Origin: Catajapyx aquilonaris
Taxonomy: Eukaryota
Reading direction: 5' to 3'
DNA: 63,047 nucleotides
Assembly: GCA_000934665.2 (NCBI GenBank)
Contig: JYFJ02002106.1
Location: 1 to 63,047, forward strand
Shown piece after piece: positions 14,493 through 51,780 of this stretch (position 1 is the stretch's first letter; every line of letters begins with the position of its first letter). The notes below the pieces were generated by a model. It saw only the letters and a list, made by a program, of their open reading frames with translations, was not told the origin of the DNA and made no database searches. The translations under genes were made by a program, and so were the position numbers.

Positions 14493-17400
14493 TCAGAGTT
14501 TTTCTTCTTTTCCAGCTATCGAAAGCACGGAGGGCTTGTCTGTCCGCTTTGGGATCAAAGGGGCTGGACACGTAGGGAAGAAGTGCAGCTCACGATCAAG
14601 TGTTGTTGACTGAAACATGGCAAATAAAACACAGCTCTCAGAACATTCAATTGTTATCGGATCTACTTAAATAAAAGGCGAGCATATAATTTCTGGACAC
14701 AAATGGAAAAAACTAATGCACAGCAATGCTTCTGATAAATTAAGAGAGGAAATTGCACTAATATTGACAACAGTCCAGAAAAACTCCACTTTCATATTGC
14801 AGCAATTACATCCAATTAATTACATATCAATCTTAACCTCCCTTATCATGTCAAGATTAATCATTTATAACAATAATTATTATCACATCGATTAAAAATA
14901 ACAAAAATGCATTTTCAAAACAAAATGACTTTGCAATGCAATATCATCACCAAATATTTAAAATTAAAATTAAAACAGTAAAAAGTAAATCATAAAATAA
15001 AAACATCAACTTACTGCCAAACTTGCTTCTTCACTACTTCGTCCACATTTTAAATTCCAGGGGTAGGTTTCAGAAGTGTGACCAAAGCAATCAATCAAGA
15101 CGGGGGGGTGTGTCTGGGGGAGGTCGGTGGTGGAAAAATGTGTGCAAAAATAAATGATGGAAAGTAGATTTGCACAGGAATTGCAAAAAAGGATAGTATG
15201 TTGTCCAACATAAACATCAGCATGCAGTCCTTTTTTTCTCTCTTTTTCCCCTTATACATGAAACACCAGGCTTGGATTTGCATTCCGCATGCAAAACTCG
15301 AGGAGGACCCCCTCAGAACATATCCATTGCATGCAAGCATGGGGTTGACTCTGCCTGTAGAAAAAAAAGCATACATAAAATGCAAGTAAGTGTGCAAAAT
15401 AACTACGAGGTGCAAGGCATGCACTTGATATTGTGCTGGTCTAAATTGGTTTAAAATTTTGCTAACATTTCCAGTCTTACAATGCATAGTGAATCATAAG
15501 CCATCAACTCTAATGCTACTGTATAATTTAAACTAATTTCACACTTTCTGAAGGTAATTACATTATTTACACAAAAAAATAGGCAATATCAAAGATGTGA
15601 ACATCTTTGCCTCTAAATTCAGTTGCGTCTCGTGAAACTATTGCTACGTACAGCTCTTCTGAGTTAGTCATTAAATGGTGCTGTTAATCACCATGCAGTC
15701 AGCTAACTCTCACATAAAACATGATTACTCGGAAAAAAAATACTATTGTACACACTTTCATTAACTCATGACGACAAACAAAAAAAGTACTGCCAAAAAA
15801 TGCAACAAAATGGTGCTAGAAAGACATGTGCGAAGAGGAGAAAAAACTGGGCAGCCTCATTCCAACTCTGCTGGATTGTGGCTGCAATTGTCCGGCAGTG
15901 TGCCGGGTTAGTGATTGTCAACTACTTACTGCAATTAGTGTCATACCGGCGGACTTGTGGTGGTGGTGGTGGTGGTGAGGAGGGGCTTGGGTGTTAAAAT
16001 GCAAACCAAGTTTATGGTGGGTCAGTTTATAATCATGAGAGTTGGCAGTGTCCAGCACATCTTCCTCCTGCGGAATAAAGTGAAAAATCAGACATCACCG
16101 TACTAAGTAATACAAGAGCAGTGCAATCCATTGTAATTTCTCCTTGTATTAATACTAGGGAAGAATCCTGCACAAAAGCAACAACAAATAATCATCACTC
16201 CAATCTAGAGGTGGCATTCCCTCCTCTTAACAACATAAGATTAATTTCAGATACCAAAGGCCACAAGATTGCCATACATTTGTCTGACTTACGAGAAATT
16301 CTCGAAGTAAAATTAGGACTAACTGTGAGCCATGGATGTGCCAGGACTTCCGCTGCTGTGAATCTGATGTCTGGATCTACTTGCAGCATGTGGCTAATGA
16401 GGTCCTTCCCGCAGTCAGAGATGTCATCCCAGTAAGGGGAAGTGAACTCGTAATGTCCACTGAGAATCTGATCAAAAAGCTCCTCCTGGTTGTTGGAGGG
16501 GGACACAAAAGGTGGAAACCCACACAGAAGGATGTAGGTGATAACTCCCGCTGCCCAAATGTCCACCTTCACACTGTATCCAGACTCGGCCAGGATTTCA
16601 GGAGCCACGTAGGTTGGAGTGCCACACACAGTGTAGAGGGACTCGTTCACTACCTGAGCCAGTCCAAAGTCTCCCAGCTTCAATGATTTGCTACCATCCG
16701 GTTTGTCAACCACCTGCAAACGCAATGATTTGTAATCAGTGGAATCTAATTCAAGACACTGGAAATTACACAATTGCATTACATAACAGACATTACCATG
16801 TCTTTGATTTTAATGCTGCATAATATTTGCAATTTCTAACAGCAAATAAATTTAAAGGAACAACCACTTACTAGAAGGTTTTCAGGCTTGATGTCCCGGT
16901 GAACAATGTTGAGGTCGTGAAGGTATTTCAGTGCCGAGACCAAGTCATGTACCATTGGGCTGGCCGCCCTCTCACTGAACTTGGTCACTGCTGCTATGGC
17001 GTCAAATAAGTCTCCACCCTTCAAGAAATAAAATCCTGCATTATCATCAATTTACATATGGTATTCTCAAATAATTACAGACTACATTGCACGGTTGAAT
17101 ATTCAAATTAAATGTGCCTGGTAAAATTTCAAGCTGATTCAAATGAAGGAATTTTACAGCAGATCTCACATGTAACTTGAACATCGTCCCTTAACACTCT
17201 TAAAAAATCATCGTGCTAATCCTCACGCTACCTTGACTAGCTCCATGACTAGGTAGAGTTCGTCCTGAGTGTCGTACTCCTCCATCAGCCTGACAATGTT
17301 GTTGTGCTTCACCCTCCTGAGGATTGCCACCTCACTCTCTATCATCTGCTCCTTACCCCTGCATTTAGACTTGTCTATAACCTTCAGTGCATAGGCATTG

Positions 17401-20400: not shown

Positions 20401-23400
20401 GGGNTTTTCTTTAGGAAAATAGCAAGCCGAAGACACACACACACACACAAAAAAAAAAAATACAAAAGATTACATCAATTTCCAAGCTGCAAACTCCGCT
20501 TCTAAAAATGGGATCTACTGTTTTTTTTTCCTTCCTCAAACCTTTTCTTAAAGTCTCCACGCTTCCAGCTCAATCATCCCATCTTCTTTTCCTCTCCAAA
20601 AAAAAAACTCTTTCCTCCGAACAAAGAACTACTCCAATTCAGCTTCACGCTATTGAACTACCAAGCACTGCGGAAAAACTACTCCCATCGAATTTACAAC
20701 CCCGATAATTACATCACTTGATGAGCCTGTACCTTAATAAGCCCTACAATATTTAGTCATAACCTCACATTGAATATGGAGATGCTCATATAATAAATTA
20801 ACCTATTGATTTAAGACTCAAGAACCCTCCCAGCAGATGTGGTTAGTGAATCACTATAACCCTATATCGATTTGGAGCCACAATTATTTTTCTTAATCAA
20901 CCCTATATACGACAGTGGGGAGAGTCCCACTTCATTTCTTCAGCAGAAAGAAGAGGCTAACTGAAGCGTCGTTGATGGCCAAGTTTATGGGAGCACGATT
21001 TTAGTTCCAAATCGAATTAAAGGGAAGGGAGAGCAGTATCTTGCTAAGAATGGGAGGGGGATGATTCAAGACTTTTTCTGCGCTGATTCATGCCCTAGTC
21101 AGGTCTGATGGTGTAAAAAAAAAGGAAGAGAAAAAAATATCGAATAGCAGGATGGAACCTAAGAAAAATGACAAAGAGGGTTCCCTTTTCCAAGGCGGTA
21201 GAAAAAATGGGAGAAATTTTTGTGCTCGTAAATCCGAATCAGGGCTTGCTTTCTCAAGTTGGGGGTCATGATGACAATTGGGCTTCATGTTTTGTTATTA
21301 GGGATGTTTAAGACGACCAACCGCACTGACTGTGATAATAGTGTCCATCAAGGCGTAGATAACGAGTGTTTTTGCTCGACTGGTTCGCAATAGACCTACC
21401 GATGCGTATTGGCAACATGGACAATAGCTTGACATCGAAAACTATCAAAGTGCAGCCTTTGTGCTATATTACTAACCTTCACCCCAGCCTTATATCACTC
21501 CAAGTCACGCAAGGCCTGACATTCGACATGTACTTAATTTAATTTAAATTTATCGGCGACCCAAATTAGTGTGAATTTTCTCCCTATAACCCCAGTTTTC
21601 ATTCCATACCCACTTGGTTTAGAAATGTAATATATCAGCCGTTTCATAATTCTCATTAAAGAGCACTTACATAACTACACGAAAGTTCGCGAAGGACAAA
21701 CCGCACGGAGGGGATATACAGTACCACACTGTACGCTAATGCGGAATTTCCTAAAGTATGTCGCACTTTTTTTTTTGTCAGGGGCCACATGGCATCCCGA
21801 ATTAATTTCCCAAACTATAGTAAAACATGTCGCTTTTAATGTGAAACGGCAGTAAAACTGTGGGCTACAATTAAACTCCAGGACAAAATATGCACCCAAA
21901 AAATAAGTCTCGTTTTGGTTATCTCCATAAAACATAAAATTTTTGCTTAGATTAATTTTCCACCCCCACCCTCTCCATTTGCTTCCCTCACCCCTCCAGT
22001 CCCCCCCTCTTCTATTTTCTCGCTCCGCAGACATAATAAACTACGCTTAGGGACATTTACGAGGTAGCGCACTTTTCATAAAACTTGCCCAGATGAGTAA
22101 TGGTGGAGCACTGCATCGGGATAGAAGACGTAACGACGTTAAAATATATTACACCTTCCGTAAATTGAATCAGTACCTGGAAAGTTCGGCAATGGTTTAT
22201 TGAAATCAATACGCGATGGCATGTTTCTTTTCTTTTTTTTTTCCTCAAAGGCACGTGACGAATGTCCATGTATAGTAAAAGGTTACTAAGGTTAGAAATA
22301 AAGCTGAGTTGTCAGCTAAGCATCTGTAAAATTCGAATCGGTGGGAAAAGTGTGCGTGTTTTAGAAAATATCACGGACACCATTGCTTTTTTTTGTGCCA
22401 ATCAGTTGCTCTGGCTGCTTCGCACACCATCATGCTTGTTACCCCTGCGACCTTTTCCCTTTGGAAAAAAAAAGCATAGTACCAGCGGAAATGCACAATA
22501 ATAATAAACCTCTCTAGTTTCACATACGAAGGCAAGTGACCTCAATCAAGGGCATGTAATAAGCAATAAATTCGTCTCCTGGGCAAATTTCGCATGTCTT
22601 TTTCCCTCTCAAAACCGGTCCTATCATGAGAAAAGGTTGACATGTAATCGGTCACACAGTCCAGAACTGTCCAGCTTGAGAACTAAGTTCGCAAGGATAC
22701 TGTCATTACATAGCGGCACTGTAATAATGTAACACACAGGTCTACTGTACGATAACTCTCTGAGGCAGTGTTACAAATTAGATCCGCAAGAAGCGGTTGG
22801 CAGGTGCATCCTTGGAGTTCCCAATGACGTTACGCAGGCTGCTCAAGACTGCAAGTTCATTTTTATCGCCTTCATTTTCACGGATGCAGTTGAAAAGCCA
22901 AGTGTGACAAGCGCAGTACAATGATATATCTTTTGGTGATTTTTCATCAACTTTGCACAGTGCTACGGATTCAGCAATAAATTATTCACACTGAAGACAT
23001 GATTTGTTACTTTCCAGTGCACACTCACAATGTGTGGTATCATGCACAACTTTCCACGGTTACATGACAAGGCTGAAACTGACAGTGGCCCTTTCCCTCT
23101 TTCATGTCAACCTGTGTACCCCAACTGATTTTTAACAATGGTTATAAGCATCAGCCAGACGCCACAAAATTCTACCAAAATTAATAGTCTATTATTTTAA
23201 AAAGTGTAATTACTTACCGCTCTGCCGTCCAGAGTGAACACTTTTCTGACAGCTCCGGTGTCCAGCTTGATAGCCTCTGTGATATCAGCCAGAACCTGCT
23301 CATACGAATGTGCTGTCTTTCTGTTCAGTAGTAGCCTGACTGCCTTTCTCGGCCGAATCCCATTACGAATCACGGTGATCAGCTTTGGCCTTATAAAATC

Positions 23401-24021
23401 CCTGGGACCCAATGCTGCTGAATCACTGTTAGGCCCAGGAGGTGTTCCCTCAGGAGCCAATGCACCTCCGGCAGCCCTAGTCCTCCAGTGTGGTGCTTCA
23501 GCCTTTCCATAGTCCATCTTCTTGTAAGCCTCTGTCCCACAGCATACGTAAGCCTGACCTTCCTCCAGTTCTTCCAGTGTGGACACCTTCCGCCCATCTA
23601 GAGTCATCACTTGTCTGGCACCGCTTGGCAGATTACGACCATCAACCAGTGCTCGGGTCAGGTCACCCAGCAAGCTCTCAAAGGTTCTGTACTTGTCCGG
23701 AGTCACGGCCAGTACAAGACCCTTGAAGAATCGGTCCCCGTTCCGGAAGAACCTGATTTTTTTGGCTTTTTTCTCAGCAGATATCTTAAGAATGGAGGTT
23801 CTGAGCATGTTCTGGCTGTTGCTGTGAGTGTGATCCTTTCCAGGTGTGTGGTCAGAGGAACTGGTGCTTGTGCTAGTACGAGACACACTGCTCTGGACGA
23901 GCAGCGGGTCATCACCATCAGTGCGGGTCATTGCGTTAACAACCTCTTCAGCAGTAGTCACTCCAGAGGTGCCGTTGACAGTGGCAGCTCCAGGGTCTTG
24001 CTGTCCTTCCAGATCTGTCAT
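14493..24021 (-). CDS. DCLK: Doublecortin-like serine/threonine kinase (two DCX domains plus CaMK-like kinase)
   Basis: [63 protein letters not shown]-terminal exons 15930-16067 and 14493-14629 splice to AGMTLIA|STTLDRE, resembling the DCLK1 tail. Confidence 0.93.
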
Positions 24022-27000
24022 GATTCCATGGAGCTGTTCACAGCTGCAATTAAAAATTGATTTATTATTCCTGGGTGTCCATTGCATATCAACAGTAATG
24101 CGCATTCTCAATATTTTTAACACCATTGATTAACCGGCTCCAATAATACACTTCAACTTATATGAGCAAGTTTGCATCCGCCATGTGCCCACTCTTCTCC
24201 TACCACGCTGTTTATTTTATTGAGCACCACCTACACTCAATCGGTTCCAATGACTGGACACGAGCCTACTAATTGCTACCCTGTCCATCGTCAGCACTTT
24301 ACCCATCAGTCACACACTAACCATATCTCTGAAGACATGCTCAGGCCTGTGGCATTCAGCTTGGTTAGAAGGGTTTATGAAGGCAGTGTTCCCACGAACT
24401 GGTTGCCATTGGAACTAAAGGATGTGAATGGAGAAAAAAAAAACAAGCTTCCTAGCAAGAATTAGAAAGTTATATTTGGACACTTTTACAGCACTGGGAC
24501 GGCAATCAAGGGCTCATCATTGCTTCGCGTCGAGGGAACACACATTGAGTCATAAAAAAAGGAGGGTGAAAAATAAAAGCGTGCATTTGCCAGGTTGAGA
24601 ACTTTTTTGCATTATCAGGTAATTACTGTTATTTATCTGTCTATGGGCTAGTCATCGCTTCCGCTTTACCTTCCTCTCCCCATCATATACGTACACGAGA
24701 GGTGTTGCGCAAGTTCTTGACCTTACCACAGGAAGGCTAAAAAACAATGAGTGGGATCCTGAACAATTCTCCTTCCAACATCCACCTACACAATCTAACC
24801 AAAACCAACACTGCTGCTACTTTATCATTCCATAGTCAACCTCCACTGTATCACACTACAGTTTTTGCAAAAAAAATCAAGAGCACCTCATTAGGGCAAT
24901 GAATCAGTTACAATCAGCATGTGACAACCATGAAAGCCAATTAATTTCATATTCAACATTATATGAATGCACACGTTCAAACAATTATATGGTATGTTTA
25001 TCCAGGCTATTCAATGCAACCCCAAAAGCTTCCCTTGCTCGCAGGCAAAGCATAGTTTGTAGAATGACATACGAAACCGAGTTTGTGATGGCAACGGCGG
25101 AAACATTGACCTCATAACGCCATGTTATAGCCGCGTTTATCAAACTAACTAACCCGACATCATTACGTCGTCTACGATCGATTAAAAGTACACTATTAAG
25201 ATAGTACCAGCACGGTGCTGGCGTCGTCCTACGAAAGATACGGCACATCATATCGAACGCATACATACCTGCCAAGCGTCAGTGAACCCATAGGCACGAG
25301 TCTATGAATAATCGCAAACATTTGCAACAATGAAAAGCTGGGTACATTCATACGTTTCTCCCTAACATCCAGCGTACGTTATGCTTATACTAAAAGGGCA
25401 ATACCCCCATTCATTCTACATGGTTAGCAAAAAAATTCTGCAGCTCAGAACAAATCCGGTGACGTAATGCATACTCACTGTCCCCCACACACAATCCGAG
25501 CTATTATGTAGAGCCTCCAAATTACCTAACATATTACAATTTCAGGCCGATTGCCTTTCGACATTTTCTAATCCCCCCTCTGAATGTGCCCTGAATATTT
25601 AAGTAAGGTCGTGGGTTTAATTAGGCTCGTTCAACAAATAGCAATGTACACACACCATGAACAATCATGGCCACCAGAGGTTATCTCACACAAAAAAATG
25701 CTTCCATCGCAGTCACGACGTTACACATTTCAAAAGCTCAAAAAAGGCACGTACTACATAAAACAAAACAAAAAAAACAGAAAGGTTGCACGTACACATG
25801 CTATTATAAATCCTCATTTGAAGCTGACGTGTCGCTGAGGATTGGATCTCACAGGACTGGTCAACAATCAAGCTGTTTGAAAATAAATTGATCAGTTCAA
25901 GGAAATTCCAGTTCAGGCCAGATGAAATAACTCAGTATTACGTGTTCGCATACGGTTCTTGATATAAGCTGACTCACAGGAAAATGATTTGTCACCGACT
26001 CATATCCCTTGAAATAGGGGCCTGGTTGAAACCGCCACCAAAATGTCGCCATGGTATTTATGACACACGACATAAGGCTTGCCACAGGAAGCCGCCACAT
26101 TTCAGCTTTAAAAGGAATTCAATTCAGTCTCATACTCAGCTGAGCATTAAAGAGATTACGTGTAAGAATCGGGGAAATGCGAATCGATTTTTGGCCTAAT
26201 TGCCTGCTATTTTTAATTAGGCTTAAAATAATACAGCCGCATACTGACGTCAGGTCACACCATGGTGTTGGACTTTGTTTTTGTCTACGAATCTGTCGGA
26301 CCTAGTTCGCCAGACAGCGTTATATATTTAGCCCAGAATCGCGACTATTTATATTCACATCTGTTTCCTTCGACAATGTCAAACGCTTACGTACTCTCAT
26401 TACAGTCGCGTGCCCAACCTTTGTATCGACCTGCCCGAAAAATCCAATATCTCCCCTTCCAACTTATACTGCATACATTTTCGGCTAAAAAATAATAAAT
26501 GGTAAAACTGACCACAATATGAAACCTCTTCCTGGACCGATGACAAAAGATATGTCTTCTCTGGTAGAACCACCAACCGGGCCTTGTTGCCGTGTCCTCA
26601 CCAGACTGCTGCTGGAGCCAACTCAGACATACATTTTCTTTCTTTTCCTTTTCCCCCTCCTCCAAGTGAACCCCTCCAGAGAATCTCCCCCAGTTGGTGA
26701 AGCCCAGCCGAGCTGAACCCATGACTCATCTGCAAATCACTTGACGCTCCCTAACCCTCATCTCCGATTCTCCCCCACCCAAACATACTGCACCCCTACA
26801 TCCCTATCGACAATCTGTATCGACGTCGACAATGTCCACCGGTTCGAGACACGTATTTTTTGGGGGGAAGGGAAAAAGGAATGACTGGCCATGACCTTGC
26901 GCAACTTATTAATTGCTAGGTTCGTGGGCGCAGTGACCATGAATGGATTTAACGGACAAGGTGCAACGGGGAATATTGCAGTACTGTGTGGTACCTGGTA

Positions 27001-31349: not shown

Positions 31350-31950
31350 ATTAATCAGCTATATTAGTTGAGTGTCACTGGTCTATTTTAACTTTTTAAG
31401 CAGCTACATACTATTTTCGTAGCCAGCCTATTGTCACTGACATTACGCTGTGAAATTCAACGATTGTCACTAATCAGCTACATCAGTTGAGCGTAGCTAG
31501 GTTATTTAAGCAGCTATATCAGTTGAGAGTAAGGTATTTTAAGCTGCTATATTAAGTTATTTTCGTAGCCATCCTATCTATTGTTACTGACATTAAGCTG
31601 CGAAATTCAATGATTGTCACTAATCAGCTACATTAGTTGGCAATTTTAAGGAGCTACATTACGCAGCTACAATAGTTGAGTGTGATTAGGCAATTTTAAG
31701 CAGCTATATTAAGTTATTTTCGAAGCCATCCTATTGTCGCTGATATTCTTCTTCACGACATATTTCTCTATATAAAGAGGTAGTCCCAGAATAACGAGGA
31801 GATCGTCGCTGATATTAAAGCTGTGAAATTCAATGATTGTCACCAATAAGCTGCGATATATGCATTAGTTGAGTGTGACTGTTAATCTGCTATATTATAT
31901 TTGATTTTTTTCGTAGCCATCCTAATATTGTCGCTGATATTAAGCCGTGA
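31350..31950. repeat. Degenerate tandem repeat, about 4 copies of a 120-240 bp unit
   Basis: Recurrent blocks ttttcgtagccatcctattgtc.ctga.att and gaaattcaatgattgtcactaatcagctac.ttagttg. Confidence 0.8.
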
Positions 31951-32339: not shown

Positions 32340-32512
32340 TTTCTCTCCCAAATACGCGGTGTTGCCAATACGCACCCACAAATTTGGCAACGCAGCAGGA
32401 AATCAAGATGGCGTCAAATACTGTGGCGTGATTTCTTCACCCGTTTTGTGTGTGTGGCTCTTTTTGTGCCTTTTCATAACTATTTGTTGGAAATGATTCT
32501 GTGAATCGGGAG
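32340..32512. promoter_or_regulatory. Tim8(-PEX3) promoter, probably divergent with the DCLK 5' UTR exon
   Basis: Inverted GTTGCCAA/TTGGCAACG pair (32361-32392), YY1-type AAGATGGCG (about 32405), and a minus-strand donor CAA|GTAAGT at 32165. Confidence 0.5.
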
Positions 32513-33453
32513 ATGGATTCTGGATCGTCCCGACCGGACCCCCAGCTCCAGCACTTCATTGAGGTTCAGGCGCAGAGGCAAAAGTTCAACGTAAGCATCA
32601 GCATGCTGGGCTGGGGCGGGTCAATGTAACTGTTGGCCAGCCTGTAAAAAGGAACACGAAAAATTTGGGGAGTCAGGACTTAAAATTTTGCAGTAATAAT
32701 ACAATAACACTCTCCTACCAATGGTTATATCATAGCAACAGCTATTCAGATATGAAATACTCATGTCACGGTAATAATTAATAACATTATTTATGTATTA
32801 TTAGCTACCATTAACTATTATTTGACAGTTTATAGATTAATAGCTAATAATCAATAATAGCCAATAATTAATAACTTAATAATTAATAATAGCCAATAAT
32901 TAATAACTGTTAACGATTAATAGCTGTTAACAATTAATAGCTAATAATCAATAATAGCTAATAATTAATAAATTAATAATTAATAAATTAATAATTAATA
33001 ATAGCTAATAATTAATAACTTAATAATTAATAATAGCCAATAATTAATAACTGTTAACGATTAATAACTGTTAACAATTAATAGCTAATAATCAATAATA
33101 GCTAATAATTAATAAATTAATAATTAATAATTAATAATAGCTAATAATTAATAACTGTTAACAATTAATAATAGCTAATAATTAATAACTGTTAATAAGT
33201 TATTCACTAACTATATTAGGGAAATGTGTCGTGATGATGACGACAACTTTCGTTGCAGGTCCTGGTGCATACCCTGACTGACCAGTGTTGGGATCTGTGT
33301 ATGGACAAGCCAGGCAACCGGCTGGACACGAAGACGGAGAATTGTCTGTCGAACTGTGTGCAGCGGTTCATCGATACGACCAACTTTGTGGTGAATCGAT
33401 TGGAGAAGACGTCCCAAGTGTCGGCCTCGTCCGATTCCGAGTTTTCCGATTAA
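32513..33453 (+). CDS. TIMM8: Mitochondrial small Tim chaperone Tim8; exons 32513-32590 and 33259-33453
   Basis: DPQLQHFIEVQAQRQKFN|VLVHTLTDQCWDLC...CLSNCVQRFIDTT: twin CX3C motif and Tim8 signature. Confidence 0.95.
32800..33200. repeat. AT-rich minisatellite in the Tim8 intron
   Basis: Repeated aataattaataa(tagc/ctgtt) units with a higher-order duplication of about 150 bp. Confidence 0.9.
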
Positions 33454-33454
33454 G

Positions 33455-34720
33455 ATGTTTGCCAGGGTTAAGGGGTTCGTTTCGCGGCACTGGCGCAAGG
33501 TGGCCATTGCTGGTGTGGCTGTCGAAGGCGCTTACTTGCTGCTGAGATATGCGGAGAGGAGGTTGCAGGAGGAAAACCTGAAGAGGGTTAAGGCGACTTT
33601 GGAGAACGGCAGACGCACCCAGCACTATGAGAGTACTGAGCGGACTTGCGGGACTGCCATCACGTCGCTCTTTCCCGCCATGAAGGATCAGATTAACAAG
33701 ACCCTTGATTGCGACTCATTGACAACACTCTTGAGGAACAAAGCACCAAATAAGGTACGAGGGAATTTAATCAATATGAATGTGAAGCATATTTTGACGA
33801 ATTGGCATTATTTTATTCAGATTGAGTTGTGGGAAGAGCTGAAGATTCTTGCATTTTCCCGTGCCACGGCCTTGGTCTACTGTGGCGCCATGCTGACCAC
33901 CCTCCTGCGAGCCCAACTGAGCATCATCAGCGGTACAATGTATCGCACGACAGTCCTGAACTCCAAGAAGGACCAGACCGAATGCACCAAAGATATACAG
34001 AGGGCATACCTGTCATCCTGCCAACACTTCTTCAGCAATGGGATAGTCGAAGTTTGCAAACTAATCGAGACTGAAGTCGTTCAAGCTGTCGGTTCCATTC
34101 CACTGAAGCAGTATCTAACTCTTCAGGATTTGGAGCAAGTGTTTTGGGGGATCCAGACTAGGATGAACCACGTGGCGCAAGAATCCAGTCCGATACATGC
34201 TGCATCCAAATATTTAATTGGAGATTTGGCCGATTCCGAAGAGGATGACTTGATCCTGAACACTGTTGATGTGTTAGAAAGTGAGGAGACGAAGGGACTG
34301 CTGCAGTCAACCGTAAGCCGTGGAATCAACCACCTCATGGACATAATGGCCGATTATTTTGCCAATGCAGCTAAAACAATCCCACCAGTTCCAGCAAATG
34401 TTACGGTCGCTACAATCGAGTCACCTGGGCAAACGAAGGAAGAACTCAACTCAACTGAAACCTCGCCAAAGTCGTTGCACGCTGGCACAAACACAGTCGA
34501 CAACATGTGGGTTAACATCGTGCATAAGGATGGGTCAGCATTGGGAAGAGATGGATTTGTTAATCCGAATCATGTGTCAGTACCACTTGCAAAGTTGATT
34601 CCACAGGTTAGTGGGTTGCTTCACACTGGAAGCAACTCCTGGATGAATCACCTGGTTATAATGGAAAGTTTGAAAGTTTTTGGAGCCAACATTTACGAGG
34701 CTTTCATTCAGGAGGAGTAG
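33455..34720 (+). CDS. PEX3: Peroxisomal biogenesis factor 3; one 66-nt intron at 33755-33820
   Basis: FVSRHWRKVAIAGV N-terminal membrane-targeting signal; QHYESTERTC; NK|IELWEELKILAFSR; VPLAKLIP; FGANIYEAF. Confidence 0.95.
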   Translation: MFARVKGFVSRHWRKVAIAGVAVEGAYLLLRYAERRLQEENLKRVKATLENGRRTQHYESTERTCGTAITSLFPAMKDQINKTLDCDSLTTLLRNKAPNKVRGNLINMNVKHILTNWHYFIQIELWEELKILAFSRATALVYCGAMLTTLLRAQLSIISGTMYRTTVLNSKKDQTECTKDIQRAYLSSCQHFFSNGIVEVCKLIETEVVQAVGSIPLKQYLTLQDLEQVFWGIQTRMNHVAQESSPIHAASKYLIGDLADSEEDDLILNTVDVLESEETKGLLQSTVSRGINHLMDIMADYFANAAKTIPPVPANVTVATIESPGQTKEELNSTETSPKSLHAGTNTVDNMWVNIVHKDGSALGRDGFVNPNHVSVPLAKLIPQVSGLLHTGSNSWMNHLVIMESLKVFGANIYEAFIQEE

Positions 34721-35504
34721 AAAAATGGGAGTTAGTGAACATTGTGGGAGAATTTTTTTTACTCGCAAGTCAGTAGGATGGAAATAAAAATGGTGAAGGA
34801 GAATATTAAGCTTTAAATTAATTTTTGATAAGGTTCACGGGAATGGTTTTCTCCCCATCTTGTCTCTCTTCCAAGTTTTATTCAACGTAGTATTCAGACG
34901 TGCCAATCTGATTGGCTTATGGAATTTATGCATACTGAAAATAATTCCTCGAAATGCAGGCACTTACATAGGTTCAGTTAATGTCCAGTTAATTGTATCT
35001 ACAAACCTATGTTAATATTATAACAAATAGCACATTTTTCTCTCCACATTTTGCAAGTAGGCCACAAGGACCTTATAAGTGAACTGCACTGATGGAATCA
35101 TGATATTTGCGTACAGGCATTGAATATATGGACGTGCCTTGGGTGAGCGGCTACACAAGCAGTTTTACCCCCACCCATTCCAAGTCTATGTACAACATAT
35201 TAACATGAAATGTATTATGCGGCTGAGCCGTCGGTGGTATACCATTGCTGTAACCGATGTCAATAAATTAAATGTACTATTCATGCCCCATAATAATTAA
35301 CATCTGTTGTCAGATTATATTCCCTAATTCCCTAATCAGGAGCTCAGAACTAATTTCCAAATGCTTATGACAAGGCTCTTCTGTCTCTCAGGAAATGTCT
35401 CGACCTGAGGTTACTCAACCCTGCAATTTTCAGTAGTTACATACGTATATAGGCCAAATACTGTACAGTACCTTGTATGAACACAAACTTAGGAACAATA
35501 ATTA

Positions 35505-41047: not shown

Positions 41048-41799
41048 ATGGACGAAGCAAGTGCGGTAAGTACTGAGTAATTACATGTGTACTTAGCCTC
41101 ATGCAGTACTTCTATTGCAGCTGAAGGCCTTTTTTAAGATGTGTAATTGGATGACGGATGTGTGCTTCAACAGTTGTATCGAGGGATTCAACCACCGGCA
41201 TTGCAGCGATGAGGAAGTACGTATGTCGTACATGTTCACATACTTGTACTTGCACATGTATTAATTGTATTTGTATTACTTTACTTGTACTTCCATCAAG
41301 AGCTCTTGCTTGTTGCTTCCATTAATTACTGTAAGTACTTGTACTTCCATGAATATTACTGTACGTACTTGTACTTCCATGAATTACTGTACTTGTACTT
41401 CCATTTCCATGAATTACTGTACTTGTACTTCCATTAATAACTGTACGTACTTGTACTTCCATTAATTACTATACGTGTATTAATTGTATTTAATTACTAA
41501 TTAGTTACTGTACTTGTATTTAATTACTAATTAGTTACTGTACTTGTATTTAATTACTAATTAGTTACTGTACTTGTAATAATGTGGATTCATTTTTTCA
41601 GAATAGGTGTATTGATGCGTGCACCACGAAGTTGATTTACAACAACCACAGGATTGGGACTACTTACGCTGAGCTGTACCCGAAGATTATGGAGCGTCGT
41701 ATGGAGGATACGATGAAGCAGATGGCGGAAGTTGAAAAGCAGCAGGCGGCTCAAGCGACGGCTGAAGCAACGACTGAAGTGAACCCTTCGGTGCAGTAA
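41048..41799 (+). CDS. TIMM10B: Small Tim chaperone Tim9b/Tim10B (FXC1-like); exons 41048-41065, 41121-41216, 41601-41799
   Basis: Twin CX3C (CFNSC...CIDAC) with a C-terminal extension typical of Tim9b/10B. GT-AG introns are in phase. Confidence 0.85.
41240..41580. repeat. Intronic tandem repeat (ttactgtacttgtacttccat units and a 30-bp unit x3)
   Basis: Direct inspection: ttgtatttaattactaattagttactgtac occurs three times at about 41485-41575. Confidence 0.9.
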
Positions 41800-41848
41800 A
41801 TATTGGATTTTTGTGAATTCGGCTTCCAATAAGGGAGAGAAAAAAATC

Positions 41849-42829
41849 ATGGCTGTTGTTGTGTTAATGGGGCTTCCGGCTAGTGGGAAAACGCACTTCG
41901 CAGACAGCCTGAAAGCACGTCTCAGCTCCATCGTACATGTTCAGTACGACCAGTTCATTCCTTCAGACTGTAAAGGAACCGAGTGGAAACAGTGTCGAGA
42001 AGTAATTAATGATGCGACTGAGCTGATTTTGAGTCGCATCACAGAAAAGGAGCACAGCGTTACTGAACAGACTGTGAAAGTTAATGACCGAGAAATTTCA
42101 GCCCGGAGTGTCTTCCAGGAGCTGGATCCAGCAGTGAATAAAGAAACCATCGTAATTGTTGACGATAACATGTACTATCGCTCCATGCGATACGAGTACT
42201 ATCAACTTGCACGGAAATATGGAGTTGGTTTTTGCACGTTTCATCTCAGTTGTCCAGCTGATGTGTGTGTGAAGAGGAATAGTCTCCGCACAAACCCTGT
42301 TCCTGAAGACACCATCCTAAAAATGGCAAGTTTACTCGAAGAACCGCAACCTATGAAGAACCAGTGGGAGGCCATGAGTTTTGCAATCAGCTCGGAAATA
42401 ATTCACATGGACACGGTGTTAGAGGTGATCAAATCGGCCACGTTGAACCCAGTTCAGAATGTAGACGATAGTGCTGAACGTGCCCAGGACAGAGAAACCT
42501 GCTCTAAAAGCTTCATGCACAGGACAGATCAAGCTCTACGCAAGATGGTTGCAAAAGGTATGATTGAAGCCACCCAGCCCAAGGCTGAATCGAGTGAAGG
42601 AAATCCTGGCAGCAGCAAGTCGGTGCCTGAATCAGCCGATACAGCCGCACTTGCCCAACAACTGAATTCGACACGACAAGAGATACTGGCCGCAATCCGT
42701 GGCGGCGAGATTCTACTTCCTCCCAAGCTGTCTGAAGACGTTAAGAACGACTCGGCTGAAACGGACGAGAAACTGGACGAATTTATAACCAAGTTATTCT
42801 ACATCAAGATCGAAGCCAAAAGACAATAG
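41849..42829 (+). CDS. PSTK: L-seryl-tRNA(Sec) kinase, intronless
   Basis: P-loop MGLPASGKT; IVDDNMYYRSMRYEYYQLARKY; RN..R..PVP; LEEP.P.KN.WE; HRTDQALRK. Confidence 0.9.
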   Translation: MAVVVLMGLPASGKTHFADSLKARLSSIVHVQYDQFIPSDCKGTEWKQCREVINDATELILSRITEKEHSVTEQTVKVNDREISARSVFQELDPAVNKETIVIVDDNMYYRSMRYEYYQLARKYGVGFCTFHLSCPADVCVKRNSLRTNPVPEDTILKMASLLEEPQPMKNQWEAMSFAISSEIIHMDTVLEVIKSATLNPVQNVDDSAERAQDRETCSKSFMHRTDQALRKMVAKGMIEATQPKAESSEGNPGSSKSVPESADTAALAQQLNSTRQEILAAIRGGEILLPPKLSEDVKNDSAETDEKLDEFITKLFYIKIEAKRQ

Positions 42830-45341: not shown

Positions 45342-47478
45342 CTAGTTTTTACGTCGGGGTCTGGATTTGTGAAGGCAGAGCCAGGAGTTTGGAGGCTCGT
45401 TGCCTTGCCGGGGGCTTCCGTCGTCGAATGGGATGTGCCACATTGTGTCGGATTCTTTCTGCGGGGCGGTGAAATGTAATGCGGGTGCCTGCAAAATTTG
45501 GGAGGATAAGTCGTATGCTGTAGTGTGCAAGAGACGGTTCGTACCTTTACTCGGACTCGGCCGCTGGCTTCGACGTATACGAGCTCAACTTGGTGGGCCG
45601 CTTGCCATCTGCGGAATATCATGGACAAGTTCACGTCACCCAAACTAAAGGCGTGGTTTCGCATCATGTCACGGGAAACAAACTGGGTTCCAAGGCCGCT
45701 GTATAACGTTGCGTACAGTAAGAACGGGTCGTCTTGCGAGCTGCAAAGACATGGCTTGTAATTATCCCAGCCCATTACAGTCGAGGCTGAACACTTACAT
45801 GTTGTCGGCCAAGAACATCTCAGAATTCTGTCTGACATAATCCATATCTTGGTTTTTCCAACTCAGCATATGTTGGCGTCCAATTATTAAAATTTTGTTG
45901 CCTGGACGAGCGAAGTGACGTACCACTGCAGCCAGCTGTCATTACATAAATGAAAACCATTCAGTTCACCGAACACCCAATTACAAACACACAAGAAAAC
46001 ACGTTTTAAAAATTAAGCTAATTGCACCGTGTCAATGTGATCAGACATGCTGTACGGCTGTCATAAAATTCAATAGAAGCTTACCAGCCGACCCTTCTCA
46101 GCTGTAGATCTAGCTCGTGATGCATATGCAATGTTAAGTCCATCCAAGACAACTCTGTATGGCGCAGTTTTCTTTATGAACTCAAAAAACTTCTCGAGTT
46201 CCTCCGGATTTGTCCTTAGGAACACATCTTTTCGATATAACACTCGTTCTGAAAATGCTTTCCACAGCTCCTTGAACTCAGTTGGGGTCACTCTGATGGG
46301 CTCCAACTTGTGATCGCATCTGCTACACTTTCCTGTGAGATCCGCTTTAGATATCTGCCCAACCCAATTCCCAATTTCAAACCATTCCTTCAGCTTCAAT
46401 GCCAACTCCTTCGACGGAAAACCTCCGTACTGCCGCCAGAAATTCAGCAGCGTCTCCATCATCACCATATCATTGCATTTGTCGAGCCACCCAGTGTAAG
46501 TCGACTCAAATATATTTTTTCCGTCCAACATCGCTTGCCTCAACAAATCCCAACCCTGTGTGTATTCAGCATCCTTAAACGCAGCGGCCGCCAACGCGTT
46601 GTAAGCCTGAGCGCTTGGAGTGCACGTGACGCGAATAGCCGGCAGCAACGGCAGACCCTCACGCCACCGACTAGTCGCCGCAAGACCAATAATCATGTTC
46701 TCCGCCGTGTATCCATCCATCACTTTGGCCTGAAAGACGAAGCAACGAACCAAAATTATACCAGCAATGATATCAGAAGGCAACTTTTGTTTGTTTGTTT
46801 GTTTGTTTGCCTGTGCAAGGTTGGATACCATGGTGACCTGTTTCCATGGCAACTGGCATACATGTTTCCATGGCAACTGGCATACACGTTTCCATGGCAA
46901 CTGGCACACATGTTTCCATGGCATCAAAAATGACCGATTGTCGTTGATTACATTAACACGTAAACATGCCATATGAAGAAAGGGTTACGCTGCAAGTAAT
47001 AAATTGAATTATTAAGATTTAATTGCACCACCTGGCTTATGACTTGGTCGCAGAGCTTCAAGATGTATTCCTCTCCGCATTCTTCCACGCGTCCTGCACA
47101 TACGCGGGCGAACATGGAGAGAGTGGCCTGGTTTGGTTGGATTTCCTCTCCTTCCAGATAGTCCAGGAAGGACTTGGCGACTTTGTAGTGCCCGAAGATC
47201 AGGCAGGATCGCATGACCACGCCTGGGAAGTTCTTGTCTGTCGTTCCGTAGTCGCGTTTGACCGCGTCGCTTCTGAGTTCCTTCCACTGGTTGGAAGAGA
47301 GAGGACGCCCTTCGGACACGCAGGTCTCCACCAGGGTCTTCGTCCTCTCTTCCGCCTGTTGGAGCTCTCCTGATCGGACCCTGTGTCTCATCTGCACGTG
47401 TCTCAACACGGTCCAAGTGCTGCCTCGGAACAGCTGGGTCGGGTACATGCTCATTACTTTCGTGTTGATCTGAAGCAT
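45342..47478 (-). CDS. PRORP: Mitochondrial RNase P catalytic subunit (PPR plus NYN nuclease); start at 47478 or 47454
   Basis: Zn motif GKCSRC; VVLDGLNIAY; LIIGRQH; SQDDPFLLYATL; VSRDMMRNH; WHIPFD...SWLC. Confidence 0.93.
46840..46925. repeat. 24-bp minisatellite of RFX X-box-like motifs in a PRORP intron
   Basis: GTTTCCATGGCAAC at 46840, 46864 and 46888; GTTTCCATGGCATC at 46912. Confidence 0.9.
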
Positions 47479-50672: not shown

Positions 50673-51780
50673 TCAGTCTCGCATCTTTCTTTTCCTGCTC
50701 TTCGTCATGGTCTCCTTCTTTGGCTCGGACAGATTCTTCAGGTCGGACGCAAACAGCATCTGCAATTGGCAGTAATTACAGCATTGTGCAAGGTTATGAA
50801 TATTAATTAACTTACCGCCTGTGCCCATCCAGCGCACTCCCCGTACAATTTCTTGTAAAAATCCGACACCTCTTGATACACATGCGGAGTGAGCGACTTG
50901 CTGGTGGATCCCTTGGAATGAACCTTGGAGGCCACCTGACGGACATGGGTGTCCACTGGAACCACATCCAAGTAACCCAGCCCCATAAGCAGCACACAAT
51001 CCGCAACCTTCGGCCCCACTCCGCTCAGTCCAATAAGCGCTTCTCTAGCCGCACTTGGCGACCCACCATCACTTTGCGCCAAACCTCGCAACCAGGATTC
51101 GCCGCCATTCGCTTCAATCTGCTTAGCCGCTTTGCATATGTACTGCGCCCGGTATCCGAACCCTTCTGAACGTAATTTTGATTCCACGTCTGCCGCTGTG
51201 AGATGCGAAACAGGCGGAAAGCCATGGAGTGACCGGCCGTTTGGAACGGTGGCCAGTAGCGGACCGTAGAAAAGACAGAGCTTCTCAACCATGGACCAGA
51301 TTCTGTGGACATAATTGTATCGTTATAAAGTGCGATTGTGCATGAGTCGGATACGTACCTGCTGACGTTGTTGTTGGATGAGCATATGAATGCGAATGTG
51401 GTCTCGACCGGATCCTGATTGAGCAAGCGTACGTTCCTCATGTTTGCGGTGAGTCGCTGGAAGGCCTTGTCTCTTCGGCACCACTCCGAGTACAGCGAAG
51501 GCAAGTCAGCGTCCAAGCGCAGGTATGACCTCAGCACTTCAGAGTCATCCTTGTCCTCATTATTCCCAAGCCTGCGGTACATCACGTGCGTCTCAGTCTG
51601 CCTGAGCATATATGCCCTTTGACCCACCACTCCGCTCCAGCATCCTTCCTCTTCAAGCCTCCACCTGAAGCTCTGTCCTCCGCACAAGGTTCGACCCAGG
51701 TCAGACTCATCACGGGTCAGGGTCACCAGCTTCGTCCAGGTCAAGGCTGCTGGATCCACTCCTTTACGTGCAGCAACCAT
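50673..51780 (-). CDS. OGG1: 8-oxoguanine DNA glycosylase/AP lyase
   Basis: TLCGGQSFRW; QDPVETTFAFICSSNNN; GFGYRAQY; HhH-GPD motif LSGVGPKVADCV...VPVDTHV; AGWAQA|MLF. Confidence 0.96.

What the first reader, a model, noticed from the sequence alone, without database searches (positions are those of the whole stretch)
33400..33500. Tim8 stop and PEX3 start are separated by one base (TAAgATG): probable dicistronic Tim8-PEX3 unit
Seen: the Tim8 TAA is at 33451-33453 and the PEX3 ATG is at 33455 on the same strand. There is no room for a Tim8 3' UTR/polyA site or a separate intergenic PEX3 promoter, so Tim8 mRNA must run into the PEX3 CDS. The Tim8 CDS has only one internal ATG. Inference: PEX3 is translated from the same mRNA by termination-reinitiation or leaky scanning. 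That would couple a mitochondrial import chaperone to the peroxisomal membrane-import receptor. I do not know of this pairing from model animals.
Basis: partly seen in the sequence, partly recalled or inferred. Interest (0 to 1): 0.85.

Follow-up and report, generated by a model that had tools for sequence, protein, structure and literature searches.

The report
Conserved Tim8-PEX3 two-gene messenger RNA
A small mitochondrial import chaperone gene (Tim8) ends one base before the peroxisome-building gene PEX3, spliced RNA runs across the junction, and the same gene pair sits back to back in water fleas, copepods and insect-like relatives, so it is a real, old, but ordinary-in-kind two-gene messenger RNA.

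Summary
In detail: the Tim8 stop TAA is at 33451-33453, one G follows, and the PEX3 ATG is at 33455. Both genes are intact (Pfam).

- **RNA evidence.** One RNA-derived contig joins Tim8 exon 1 to exon 2 and continues 51 nt into PEX3. A second contig carries spliced PEX3 to about 35289.
- **No room for a separate Tim8 3' end.** No AATAAA or ATTAAA lies between the Tim8 stop and the PEX3 stop.
- **Conservation.** 33 of 80 Tim8 loci fetched from metagenome contigs carry PEX3 directly downstream on the same strand, with spacers of 2-206 nt. They include Daphnia-type DNA, polyneopteran-type insect contigs and 10 contigs that begin with the published copepod spliced leader.
- **Translation mechanism.** It is unresolved. 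The signatures of leaky scanning are absent. I favour reinitiation after Tim8 termination, but this is unproven. A separate PEX3 start site inside Tim8 is not excluded.
- **Novelty.** Dicistronic genes are well known in Drosophila (159 pairs). Tim8 and Pex3 are not in that list. This scan noted the pair earlier in a springtail genome (e1-7498700).

Verdict: a new member of a known kind.

The parts
32425..32512 (+). 5' UTR of the Tim8-PEX3 RNA (minimum extent; the true start may lie further upstream)
   Evidence: record 1 has 166 loose letters before 33259. Their last 30 letters equal window 32561-32590, a unique match. The contig therefore reaches back to about 32425.
32493..32504 (+). 3-codon upstream ORF (ATG ATT CTG TGA) ending 8 nt before the Tim8 ATG
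   Evidence: It is not conserved: 12 of 19 related transcripts have no upstream ATG.
32513..32590 (+). Tim8 exon 1 coding part (26 codons), donor GTAAGC follows
   Evidence: The splice to 33259 is seen in RNA contig record 1.
32591..33258 (+). Tim8 intron (668 nt, GT..AG) holding an AT-rich tandem array at 32832-33195
   Evidence: Absent from the RNA contig.
33259..33453 (+). Tim8 exon 2 coding part (64 codons plus TAA)
   Evidence: Pfam PF02953 3.5e-19; alignment A1; covered by RNA record 1.
33454..33454 (+). 1-nt spacer (G) between the Tim8 stop and the PEX3 start
33455..33754 (+). PEX3 coding exon 1 (start codon in context aagATGt, A at -3)
   Evidence: RNA record 1 reaches 33505 and record 2 starts at 33494.
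33755..33820 (+). PEX3 intron, 66 nt, GT..AG, in frame and without a stop, so the raw ORF reads through it
   Evidence: joint 33752>33819 (cut +2), removed in record 2. The relative P0001 lacks these 22 residues.
33821..34720 (+). PEX3 coding exon 2 with stop; spliced protein 399 aa
34721..35289 (+). 3' UTR; AATAAA at 34783 and 35262, ATTAAA at 35267; the RNA contig ends near 35289
   Evidence: record 2 runs 189 letters beyond 35100.

Best explanation
Tim8 and PEX3 form one conserved dicistronic transcription unit of a hexapod-like arthropod. One promoter lies upstream of Tim8 exon 1 and one poly(A) region lies downstream of PEX3. The spliced mRNA carries the 90-codon Tim8 ORF, one base, then the 399-codon PEX3 ORF. 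Tim8 is translated by normal cap-dependent scanning. PEX3 is most likely made at a lower rate by ribosomes that stay on the mRNA after terminating at the Tim8 UAA and start again at the AUG one base further on (termination-reinitiation or resumed scanning). A minor share may come from ribosomes that bypassed the Tim8 AUG, for instance after translating the 3-codon upstream ORF. Status of the steps. Shown: the adjacency, the splicing, an RNA contig across the junction, and conservation of the pair. Inferred: that single molecules carry both ORFs. Unproven: that PEX3 is translated from them, and by reinitiation. My odds: co-transcription as a dicistronic RNA about 0.85; PEX3 made mainly from that RNA about 0.55; reinitiation as the main route about 0.35.
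For: (1) Stop and start are 1 nt apart.
(2) Run X1 holds spliced contigs. Record 1 is the Tim8 exon 1 end joined to 33259-33505, so it bridges the junction with 196 nt on one side and 51 nt on the other. Record 2 is PEX3 with its 66-nt intron removed, reaching about 35289. No contig covers the last 59 nt of the Tim8 intron, and there is no loose end at the 5' end of record 2.
(3) The share of words held by X1 is 0.66. The exonic fraction of the query is 1742 of 2651 = 0.66 if exon 1 from 32425, exon 2 and PEX3 are all present (my arithmetic).
(4) No AATAAA, ATTAAA or listed variant lies between 33454 and the PEX3 stop. The first AATAAA is at 34783.
(5) 33 of 80 Tim8 loci from metagenome contigs have PEX3 directly downstream on the same strand. 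Spacers are 2-206 nt (median 66), and there is a purine at -3 of the PEX3 AUG in 33 of 33. Of the 19 best Tim8 matches, 17 are linked; the other two have only 356 and 211 nt of downstream sequence.
(6) 18 of these contigs read as spliced transcripts with a full Tim8 followed by PEX3. Ten of them start with the published calanoid CopepodSL, so they are mature leader-capped RNAs carrying both ORFs (PMC4664967 Table 1).
(7) Linked loci fall in at least four separate PEX3 clades.
(8) The PEX3 AUG is the first AUG after the Tim8 stop in 20 of 33 loci. The junction RNA is not structured (z = +1.68), which suits scanning or reinitiation rather than an IRES.
(9) The layout is known to work in insects: 159 dicistronic pairs in D. 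melanogaster, two of them with a 1-nt spacer.
Against: Contigs are assemblies. A Tim8 mRNA with a long 3' part and a PEX3 mRNA starting inside Tim8 exon 2 would merge into the same contig, so single molecules with both ORFs are not proven (tool caveat). The two contigs overlap by only 12 nt (33494-33505), and their mean word depths differ (8.3 against 43.2). That could mean extra PEX3-only RNA, or simply 3' bias. From established knowledge of eukaryotic translation, reinitiation after a 90-codon ORF is usually inefficient. No reinitiation-promoting motif or structure was found. Spacer length is not conserved, and 13 of 33 loci have 1-2 AUGs in the spacer. No ribosome or protein data exist here.
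Confidence: 0.6

Rival explanations
1. Two overlapping transcription units. Tim8 mRNA merely uses the PEX3 gene as a long 3' untranslated part. PEX3 protein comes mainly from a monocistronic mRNA that starts at an internal promoter in the Tim8 intron or exon 2.
For: Mean word depth is 43.2 for the PEX3 contig against 8.3 for the Tim8-containing contig, and the contigs break at 33494-33505. In D. melanogaster only 45 of 159 dicistronic loci appear to be exclusively dicistronic, and alternative promoters for the 3' gene are common (PMC4528330, passages).
Against: No contig covers 33200-33258, the intron end, and there is no loose end or alternative 5' exon on the PEX3 contig. A start inside exon 2 would leave a 5' UTR under 196 nt lying within conserved coding sequence. 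In 10 copepod contigs the spliced leader sits upstream of Tim8 on RNAs that continue through PEX3. Depth per contig cannot rank parts of a gene (tool caveat).
Confidence: 0.25
2. A dicistronic mRNA with PEX3 translated by leaky scanning past the Tim8 AUG, as in green-algal bicistrons and Drosophila stoned/Snapin.
For: Only one AUG (33301, weak context, T at -3) lies between the Tim8 AUG and the PEX3 AUG in the window. The PEX3 AUG has A at -3. The 3-codon upstream ORF ending 8 nt before the Tim8 AUG could let re-scanning ribosomes skip it (inference).
Against: The Tim8 AUG has G at -3 and G at +4 in the window, and a purine at -3 in 18 of 19 related transcripts. Out-of-frame AUG count is 0 against 0.73 expected (P=0.41), and no relative shows significant depletion. 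Relatives have 1-8 intervening AUGs. 16 of 17 have at least one internal in-frame AUG in Tim8, contrary to the rule reported for stoned/Snapin (Wall et al. 2005, known to me only as cited in PMC11892635). The upstream ORF is not conserved: 12 of 19 have no upstream ATG.
Confidence: 0.12
3. Alternative splicing from the Tim8 exon 1 donor (32590|32591) to the AG at 33453-33454. This would join 26 Tim8 codons in frame to the PEX3 ATG and give an N-terminally extended PEX3 without Tim8 exon 2.
For: The AG immediately precedes the ATG, with TTTTCC 8-13 nt upstream. Exon 1 coding length is 78 nt, phase 0, so the join would be in frame (inference).
Against: No such joint appears in the X1 contigs; the only joints or loose ends are exon 1>33259 and the PEX3 intron. 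The pyrimidine tract is poor. Spacers in relatives differ, so the site is not conserved. An extension would cover the conserved N-terminal membrane anchor of PEX3.
Confidence: 0.02
4. Chance adjacency or an assembly artefact with no shared RNA.
For: None beyond the general rarity of such layouts.
Against: An independent RNA contig agrees with the window across the junction with no differing letters. The same order and strand occur in 33 loci from other organisms.
Confidence: 0.01

Closest known systems
Drosophila melanogaster dicistronic loci with 1-2 nt spacing: CG34314-Rad1 and CG33932-Rpp20 (1 nt), CG42730-tectonic (2 nt). Source: FlyBase list, File S1 of PMC4528330
   Same: Two unrelated complete ORFs on one strand. 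The stop and start are 1-2 nt apart. There is no room for a promoter or poly(A) site. They are annotated as sharing a processed mRNA, with a small first ORF and a larger second ORF.
   Different: A different gene pair. Neither Tim8 nor any Pex gene is in that list: 0 hits for Tim8, Pex3, CG1728, CG6859 and Pex in the files searched, with one supplementary file not searched. The translation mechanism is also unknown for most of those pairs.
Drosophila Tim9b dicistronic locus (File S1 row 342, 162 nt between stop and start)
   Same: Another small Tim-family chaperone gene that exists only on a dicistronic transcript with an unrelated partner.
   Different: A different small Tim, a different partner (not looked up) and a longer spacer.
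Springtail Tim8-Pex3 locus noted earlier in this scan (e1-7498700)
   Same: The same gene pair in the same order, read as one bicistronic mRNA, and said to be shared by related springtails.
   Different: Another genome. It is an AI note that I did not re-examine. Here the spacer is 1 nt, and the pair is shown to extend to Daphnia-type, polyneopteran-type and copepod sequences.
Green-algal bicistronic genes such as TOM22 and OST4 loci (PMC11892635, passages), and Drosophila stoned/Snapin as cited there
   Same: A short first ORF (median about 290-600 nt) encoding a small organelle protein, a short inter-ORF distance, and deep conservation of pairs.
   Different: Those work by leaky scanning, with a weak first-ORF start context and few AUGs upstream of ORF 2. 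Neither feature is found for Tim8-PEX3.
Spliced-leader operons of nematodes and tunicates, and the calanoid CopepodSL system (PMC4664967)
   Same: In copepod relatives the Tim8-PEX3 RNA carries the spliced leader at its 5' end.
   Different: The leader is seen only upstream of Tim8, on RNAs that still hold both ORFs. Nothing shows a leader on PEX3. The window's RNA contigs show no leader.

Membership tests
Arthropod dicistronic locus (FlyBase 'gene_with_dicistronic_mRNA' sense) | Two complete, non-overlapping ORFs for unrelated proteins on one strand, separated by too little sequence for a poly(A) site plus a promoter | tested here: met
   1-nt spacer. Pfam PF02953 and PF04882. No poly(A) hexamer before the PEX3 stop.
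Arthropod dicistronic locus (FlyBase 'gene_with_dicistronic_mRNA' sense) | Processed (spliced) RNA that spans both ORFs | tested here: inconclusive
   A spliced contig bridges exon 1, exon 2 and 51 nt of PEX3, and a second contig carries the rest. They overlap by 12 nt only, and contigs do not prove single molecules. 18 transcript-like contigs of relatives hold both full ORFs.
Arthropod dicistronic locus (FlyBase 'gene_with_dicistronic_mRNA' sense) | Both proteins translated from that RNA | not testable with these tools
   No ribosome profiling or proteomics is available.
Leaky-scanning bicistron (green algae; stoned/Snapin) | Weak start context at the first ORF | tested here: not met
   Window: G at -3 and G at +4. 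Purine at -3 in 18 of 19 related transcripts; the exception, L052, has a doubtful start.
Leaky-scanning bicistron (green algae; stoned/Snapin) | Depletion of AUG in the first ORF and spacer | tested here: not met
   Window: 0 out-of-frame AUGs against 0.73 expected, P=0.41. No locus of 17 has P below 0.05. Relatives have 1-8 intervening AUGs.
Termination-reinitiation (stop-start coupling, viral TURBS type) | Start codon overlapping the stop or within a few nt of it | tested here: met
   1 nt in the window and 2 nt in L015. The other 32 relatives have 29-206 nt, so tight coupling is not the conserved state.
Termination-reinitiation (stop-start coupling, viral TURBS type) | An upstream element (structure, or a motif pairing with 18S rRNA) that holds the 40S subunit | tested here: inconclusive
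   No stable fold at 33385-33525 (z = +1.68). No enriched 5- or 6-mer in 23 spacers compared with shuffles. Complementarity to 18S rRNA was not tested.
Spliced-leader operon | Spliced leader added to the downstream cistron | tested here: not met
   The window's PEX3 contig has no loose end at its 5' end. In copepod relatives the leader is seen only before Tim8. Leader-PEX3 RNAs could not be searched for.
Tim10/DDP small Tim family (Tim8) | Twin CX3C motif and a match to the family profile | tested here: met
   PF02953 3.5e-19. C10, C14, C29 and C33 are invariant in 28 sequences. The named best hits are Tim8 proteins.
Peroxin-3 | A match to the family profile over the cytosolic domain, plus a conserved N-terminal hydrophobic segment | tested here: met
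   PF04882 2.8e-28. 47 homologues, all carrying PF04882. The N-terminus aligns from residue 1.

The most novel reading that the evidence does not exclude
Tim8-PEX3 is an ancient, obligately dicistronic gene of Pancrustacea, shared by copepods, branchiopods and hexapods, so several hundred million years old. In this reading PEX3 has no promoter of its own, and its dose is set as a fixed small fraction of Tim8 translation by reinitiation after a 90-codon ORF. That would hard-wire peroxisome membrane biogenesis to mitochondrial import capacity, and would show that animal ribosomes can routinely reinitiate after a full-length ORF without a dedicated RNA element.
Probability: 0.25. Interest if true: 0.7.

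Novelty: new member of a known kind. Interest (0 to 1): 0.45.

Why it matters
Dicistronic mRNAs are an accepted but mechanistically poorly understood feature of arthropod genomes. This pair offers four useful properties:
- It has a very short and simple junction (TAA-G-ATG).
- It couples an abundant first product to a low-abundance second product.
- It is conserved across deep lineages with variable spacers (2-206 nt).
- It includes a natural contrast between taxa with and without spliced-leader trans-splicing.

That makes it a convenient natural test case for asking how the second ORF of an animal dicistron is translated. It also matters for annotation: gene finders that require one gene per mRNA may miss or mis-join Tim8 or PEX3. 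Any functional meaning of pairing a mitochondrial import chaperone with the peroxisomal membrane-protein receptor is speculation at this point.

Tried and rejected
- **RNA runs.** No RNA holder is listed as such. The only holder is X1, kind '?'. Its contigs turned out to be spliced.
- **Laying reads.** I laid only 33200-35100, not the whole locus. Exon 1 was therefore seen only as a loose end.
- **AUG depletion test** for leaky scanning: negative.
- **Upstream ORF** as a conserved device: rejected, since 12 of 19 relatives have no upstream ATG.
- **Conserved spacer motif.** The recurrent TAGTG/GTAGT/AGTGAT words looked suggestive. However, they occur in 11 of 23 (5-mers) and 7 of 23 (6-mers) spacers, within what shuffles give (95th percentiles 12 and 8).
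- **RNA structure at the junction:** none.
- **Sigma-70 promoter and terminator scan**: not meaningful for a eukaryote, and the hits lie in the AT-rich array.
- **Own genome:** not held, so second copies of Tim8 or PEX3 could not be sought.
- **Matching contig lengths** between PEX3 hits and Tim8 hits. Two exact matches (1461, 1671) are about what chance would give, so they were not used as evidence.
- **Earlier findings** by place (near) and by sequence: nothing.
- **Literature.**
  - only two papers hold both Tim8 and Pex3 (plant translocation systems; an SLC25 review), and neither holds 'dicistronic'.
  - 20 of 294 papers were listed, none with Pex3.
  - led to the Tribolium small-ORF paper, which has 0 mentions of Tim8, Pex3 or 'peroxi' in its main text.
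  - The sloth1/2 paper has 0 mentions of Tim8 in its main text.
  - I therefore found no printed description of this pair.
- **Stop-codon readthrough fusion:** rejected. PEX3 is in another frame, and the Tim8 frame hits TAA after 5 more codons.
- **Organism naming** by a NAT10 exon: only a hexapod-like placement. Best named hits are polyneopteran insects and beetles at 72-74%, and a springtail at 69%.
Full report
**Observation.**
The window reads ...GAT TAA g ATG TTT... with TAA at 33451-33453, G at 33454 and ATG at 33455 on the + strand.

The upstream gene is Tim8.
- Exon 1 coding sequence is 32513-32590, followed by GTAAGC.
- A 668-nt intron ends in TTGCAG.
- Exon 2 is 33259-33453.
- The spliced product has 90 residues.
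- It matches Pfam zf-Tim10_DDP at 3.5e-19 and keeps both CX3C pairs, which are invariant in a 28-sequence alignment.

The downstream ORF, 33455-34720, matches Peroxin-3 at 2.8e-28.
- Its first residues align with the first residues of PEX3 from relatives, so the ATG at 33455 is the real start.
- A 66-nt in-frame intron (33755-33820) is hidden in the raw ORF. The spliced PEX3 has 399 residues.

**RNA evidence.**
Only one public run holds the stretch. It is X1, kind not on record, holding 0.66 of the sampled words. I laid its contigs on 33200-35100. I started after the AT-rich tandem array in the intron (32832-33195), because the tool turns away long repeats. Two records were laid.
- **Record 1** (413 nt) covers 33259-33505. 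Before 33259 it carries 166 further letters. Their last 30 letters equal window 32561-32590, the end of Tim8 exon 1, which is unique in the window. So a spliced exon 1-exon 2 RNA sequence runs through the TAA-G-ATG and 51 nt into PEX3.
- **Record 2** (1730 nt) covers 33494-33752 and 33819-35100, with the PEX3 intron removed, and continues 189 letters further, to about 35289.
- Nothing covers the last 59 nt of the Tim8 intron.
- The 5' end of record 2 carries no unlike letters, so no alternative 5' exon or leader is visible.
- Both introns are absent, so X1 is RNA-derived.
- The share of 0.66 equals the exonic fraction of the query, 1742 of 2651, if exon 1 from 32425, exon 2 and PEX3 are all present (my arithmetic).

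Caveats:
- Contigs do not prove single molecules.
- The two records overlap by only 12 nt.
- Their mean word depths differ (8.3 and 43.2). I cannot tell whether this is 3' bias or extra PEX3-only RNA.

**Sequence logic.**
Between the Tim8 stop and the PEX3 stop there is no AATAAA, ATTAAA or common variant. The first AATAAA is at 34783, 63 nt after the PEX3 stop. A second AATAAA at 35262 and an ATTAAA at 35267 precede the end of record 2. Unless a non-canonical site is used, Tim8 RNA must therefore run through the whole of PEX3.

As far as the contig reaches, the AUGs on the spliced RNA are at 32493, 32513, 33301 and 33455.
- 32493 opens a 3-codon upstream ORF that ends 8 nt before Tim8.
- 32513 is the Tim8 start.
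- 33301 is in frame within Tim8.
- 33455 is the PEX3 start.

**Relatives.**
PEX3 has one close unnamed relative (P0001, 64% identity). Named relatives reach only 26-37%: Orthoptera, Phasmatodea, Daphnia and others. Many unnamed Tim8 proteins lie on contigs of 1.3-2.2 kb, long for a 90-codon gene.

A scan of metagenome contigs with a Tim8 alignment returned 80 loci. tblastn with 47 PEX3 proteins sorted them as follows.

| Group | Loci |
|---|---|
| PEX3 directly downstream of Tim8, same strand | 33 of 80 |
| No PEX3, but at least 1200 nt downstream; all weaker Tim8 matches (38-68% identity to the window) | 23 of 80 |
| Too short downstream to tell | 24 of 80 |

Among the 19 best matches, 17 are linked. 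The other two have only 356 and 211 nt downstream.

In the 33 linked loci:
- The spacer is 2-206 nt, median 66.
- The PEX3 AUG has a purine at -3 in 33 of 33, and A in 26.
- The PEX3 AUG is the first AUG after the Tim8 stop in 20 of 33.

Eighteen loci read as spliced transcripts holding a complete Tim8 and then PEX3.

**Who has it.**
- **Copepods.** Ten contigs (L035, L046, L049, L051, L053, L054, L059, L060, L063, L067) begin with a shared leader. It matches the published 46-nt calanoid CopepodSL (Table 1 of PMC4664967, passages read). These are leader-capped copepod mRNAs that carry both ORFs.
- **Daphnia.** L014 is Daphnia pulex-type genomic DNA. Its Tim8 piece is 100% identical over 50 residues to the named D. 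pulex protein, and its PEX3 sits inside the Daphnia clade with support 100. The spacer is 50 nt.
- **Polyneopteran-type insects.** L007 and L008 group with the two orthopteran PEX3 (SH-aLRT 87).
- **The window's own clade.** The window and P0001 group with L012, L013 and L019 (support 84, quick tree only). For the window, L012, L013 and L019 the best named Tim8 match is a springtail.
- **The window's organism.** A NAT10 exon elsewhere in the window gives polyneopteran insects and beetles at 72-74% and a springtail at 69%. The organism is hexapod-like without a close named relative.

The pair is therefore old and widespread in Pancrustacea. It is not universal among the Tim8 loci sampled.

**How PEX3 may be translated.**

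Leaky scanning is not supported.
- The Tim8 AUG has G at -3 and G at +4 in the window, and a purine at -3 in 18 of 19 related transcripts.
- Out-of-frame AUGs in the window's Tim8 number 0 against 0.73 expected (P=0.41). None of 17 genes shows significant depletion, and 16 of 17 keep an internal in-frame AUG.
- Relatives have 1-8 AUGs before the PEX3 AUG.

An IRES is unlikely with a spacer of 1-2 nt. The junction folds no better than shuffles (z = +1.68). No word is enriched in 23 spacers beyond what shuffles give.

What remains is reinitiation, or resumed scanning, after Tim8 termination.
- For: the 1-nt distance here, the good PEX3 start context everywhere, and mostly AUG-free spacers.
- Against: the length of Tim8 (90 codons) and the variable spacers.
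- A low-efficiency route would suit an abundant chaperone followed by a scarce membrane receptor. That is inference.

The 3-codon upstream ORF could let some ribosomes skip the Tim8 AUG in this species, but it is not conserved.

A separate PEX3 start site inside Tim8 cannot be excluded with contigs. In Drosophila such alternatives are common: only 45 of 159 loci look exclusively dicistronic (PMC4528330, passages).

**Comparison with what is known.**
- FlyBase lists 159 dicistronic pairs in D. melanogaster.
- Two of them have a 1-nt spacer (CG34314-Rad1 and CG33932-Rpp20).
- Tim9b is listed as dicistronic-only.
- The list has no row for Tim8, Pex3 or any Pex gene. Twelve supplementary files were searched and one was not.
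- Green-algal bicistrons, including a TOM22 locus, work by leaky scanning with a weak first start and few AUGs (PMC11892635, passages). Those features are not met here.
- A yeast study reports 80S-mediated reinitiation on bicistrons (PMC11952965, abstract only). I take it only as a sign that such routes exist.
- My literature searches found no description of a Tim8-PEX3 dicistron.
- This scan noted the same pair before in a springtail genome (e1-7498700).
- It has also noted many other stop-start dicistrons in this same genome. I did not re-test those notes.

**Verdict.**
It is strengthened by deep conservation and by leader-capped copepod mRNAs that hold both ORFs. In kind it is ordinary for arthropods: a new member of a known class, and already seen once by this scan. 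The open and interesting part is the mechanism of PEX3 translation. The comparative data argue against leaky scanning and leave reinitiation or an internal promoter.

Noticed in passing
window 32832-33195: An AT-rich tandem array (periods 7, 17 and 144; GC down to 0.14) fills most of the Tim8 intron.
   Followed up: no
window 31428-31950: A 150-nt direct repeat (2 copies, 81% matches) and related 'gcagctatat...' units lie just upstream of the Tim8 promoter region.
   Followed up: no
window 33476-33523: The two RNA contigs of X1 end and begin here, overlapping by 12 nt only (33494-33505). No loose ends are seen, and mean word depth steps from 8.3 to 43.2. The cause is unknown: a coverage gap, 3' bias, or a second RNA population.
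   Followed up: partly
L064:1-954: In another lineage a transcript-like contig has a Tim8 ORF followed about 260 nt later, on the same strand, by a TMEM208/SND2 ORF (Pfam 3.5e-49). This may be a different Tim8-first dicistron.
   Followed up: partly
L058:52-1621 and L037:343-2790: Other unlinked Tim8 contigs have a Bcl-2 family ORF (L058) or an AAA ATPase with a nucleolin-binding domain (L037) downstream on the same strand.
   Followed up: no
L052:1-376: One copepod-type contig lacks the spliced leader and has a different Tim8 N-terminus, as if an intron were retained or another first exon used.
   Followed up: no
L006-L011 spacers: The polyneopteran-type contigs have a tiny ATG AAA TAA ORF inside the 55-66 nt spacer, just before the PEX3 ATG.
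   Followed up: no
window 2441-3595 (-), 16195-16806 (-), 23197-24126 (-), 41783-42826 (+), 46070-46981 (-), 51025-51780 (-), 60678-61415 (-): Other gene pieces in the window by Pfam: NAT10, a protein kinase, doublecortin, KTI12, PRORP, OGG1 N-terminal domain and an M24 peptidase.
   Followed up: no
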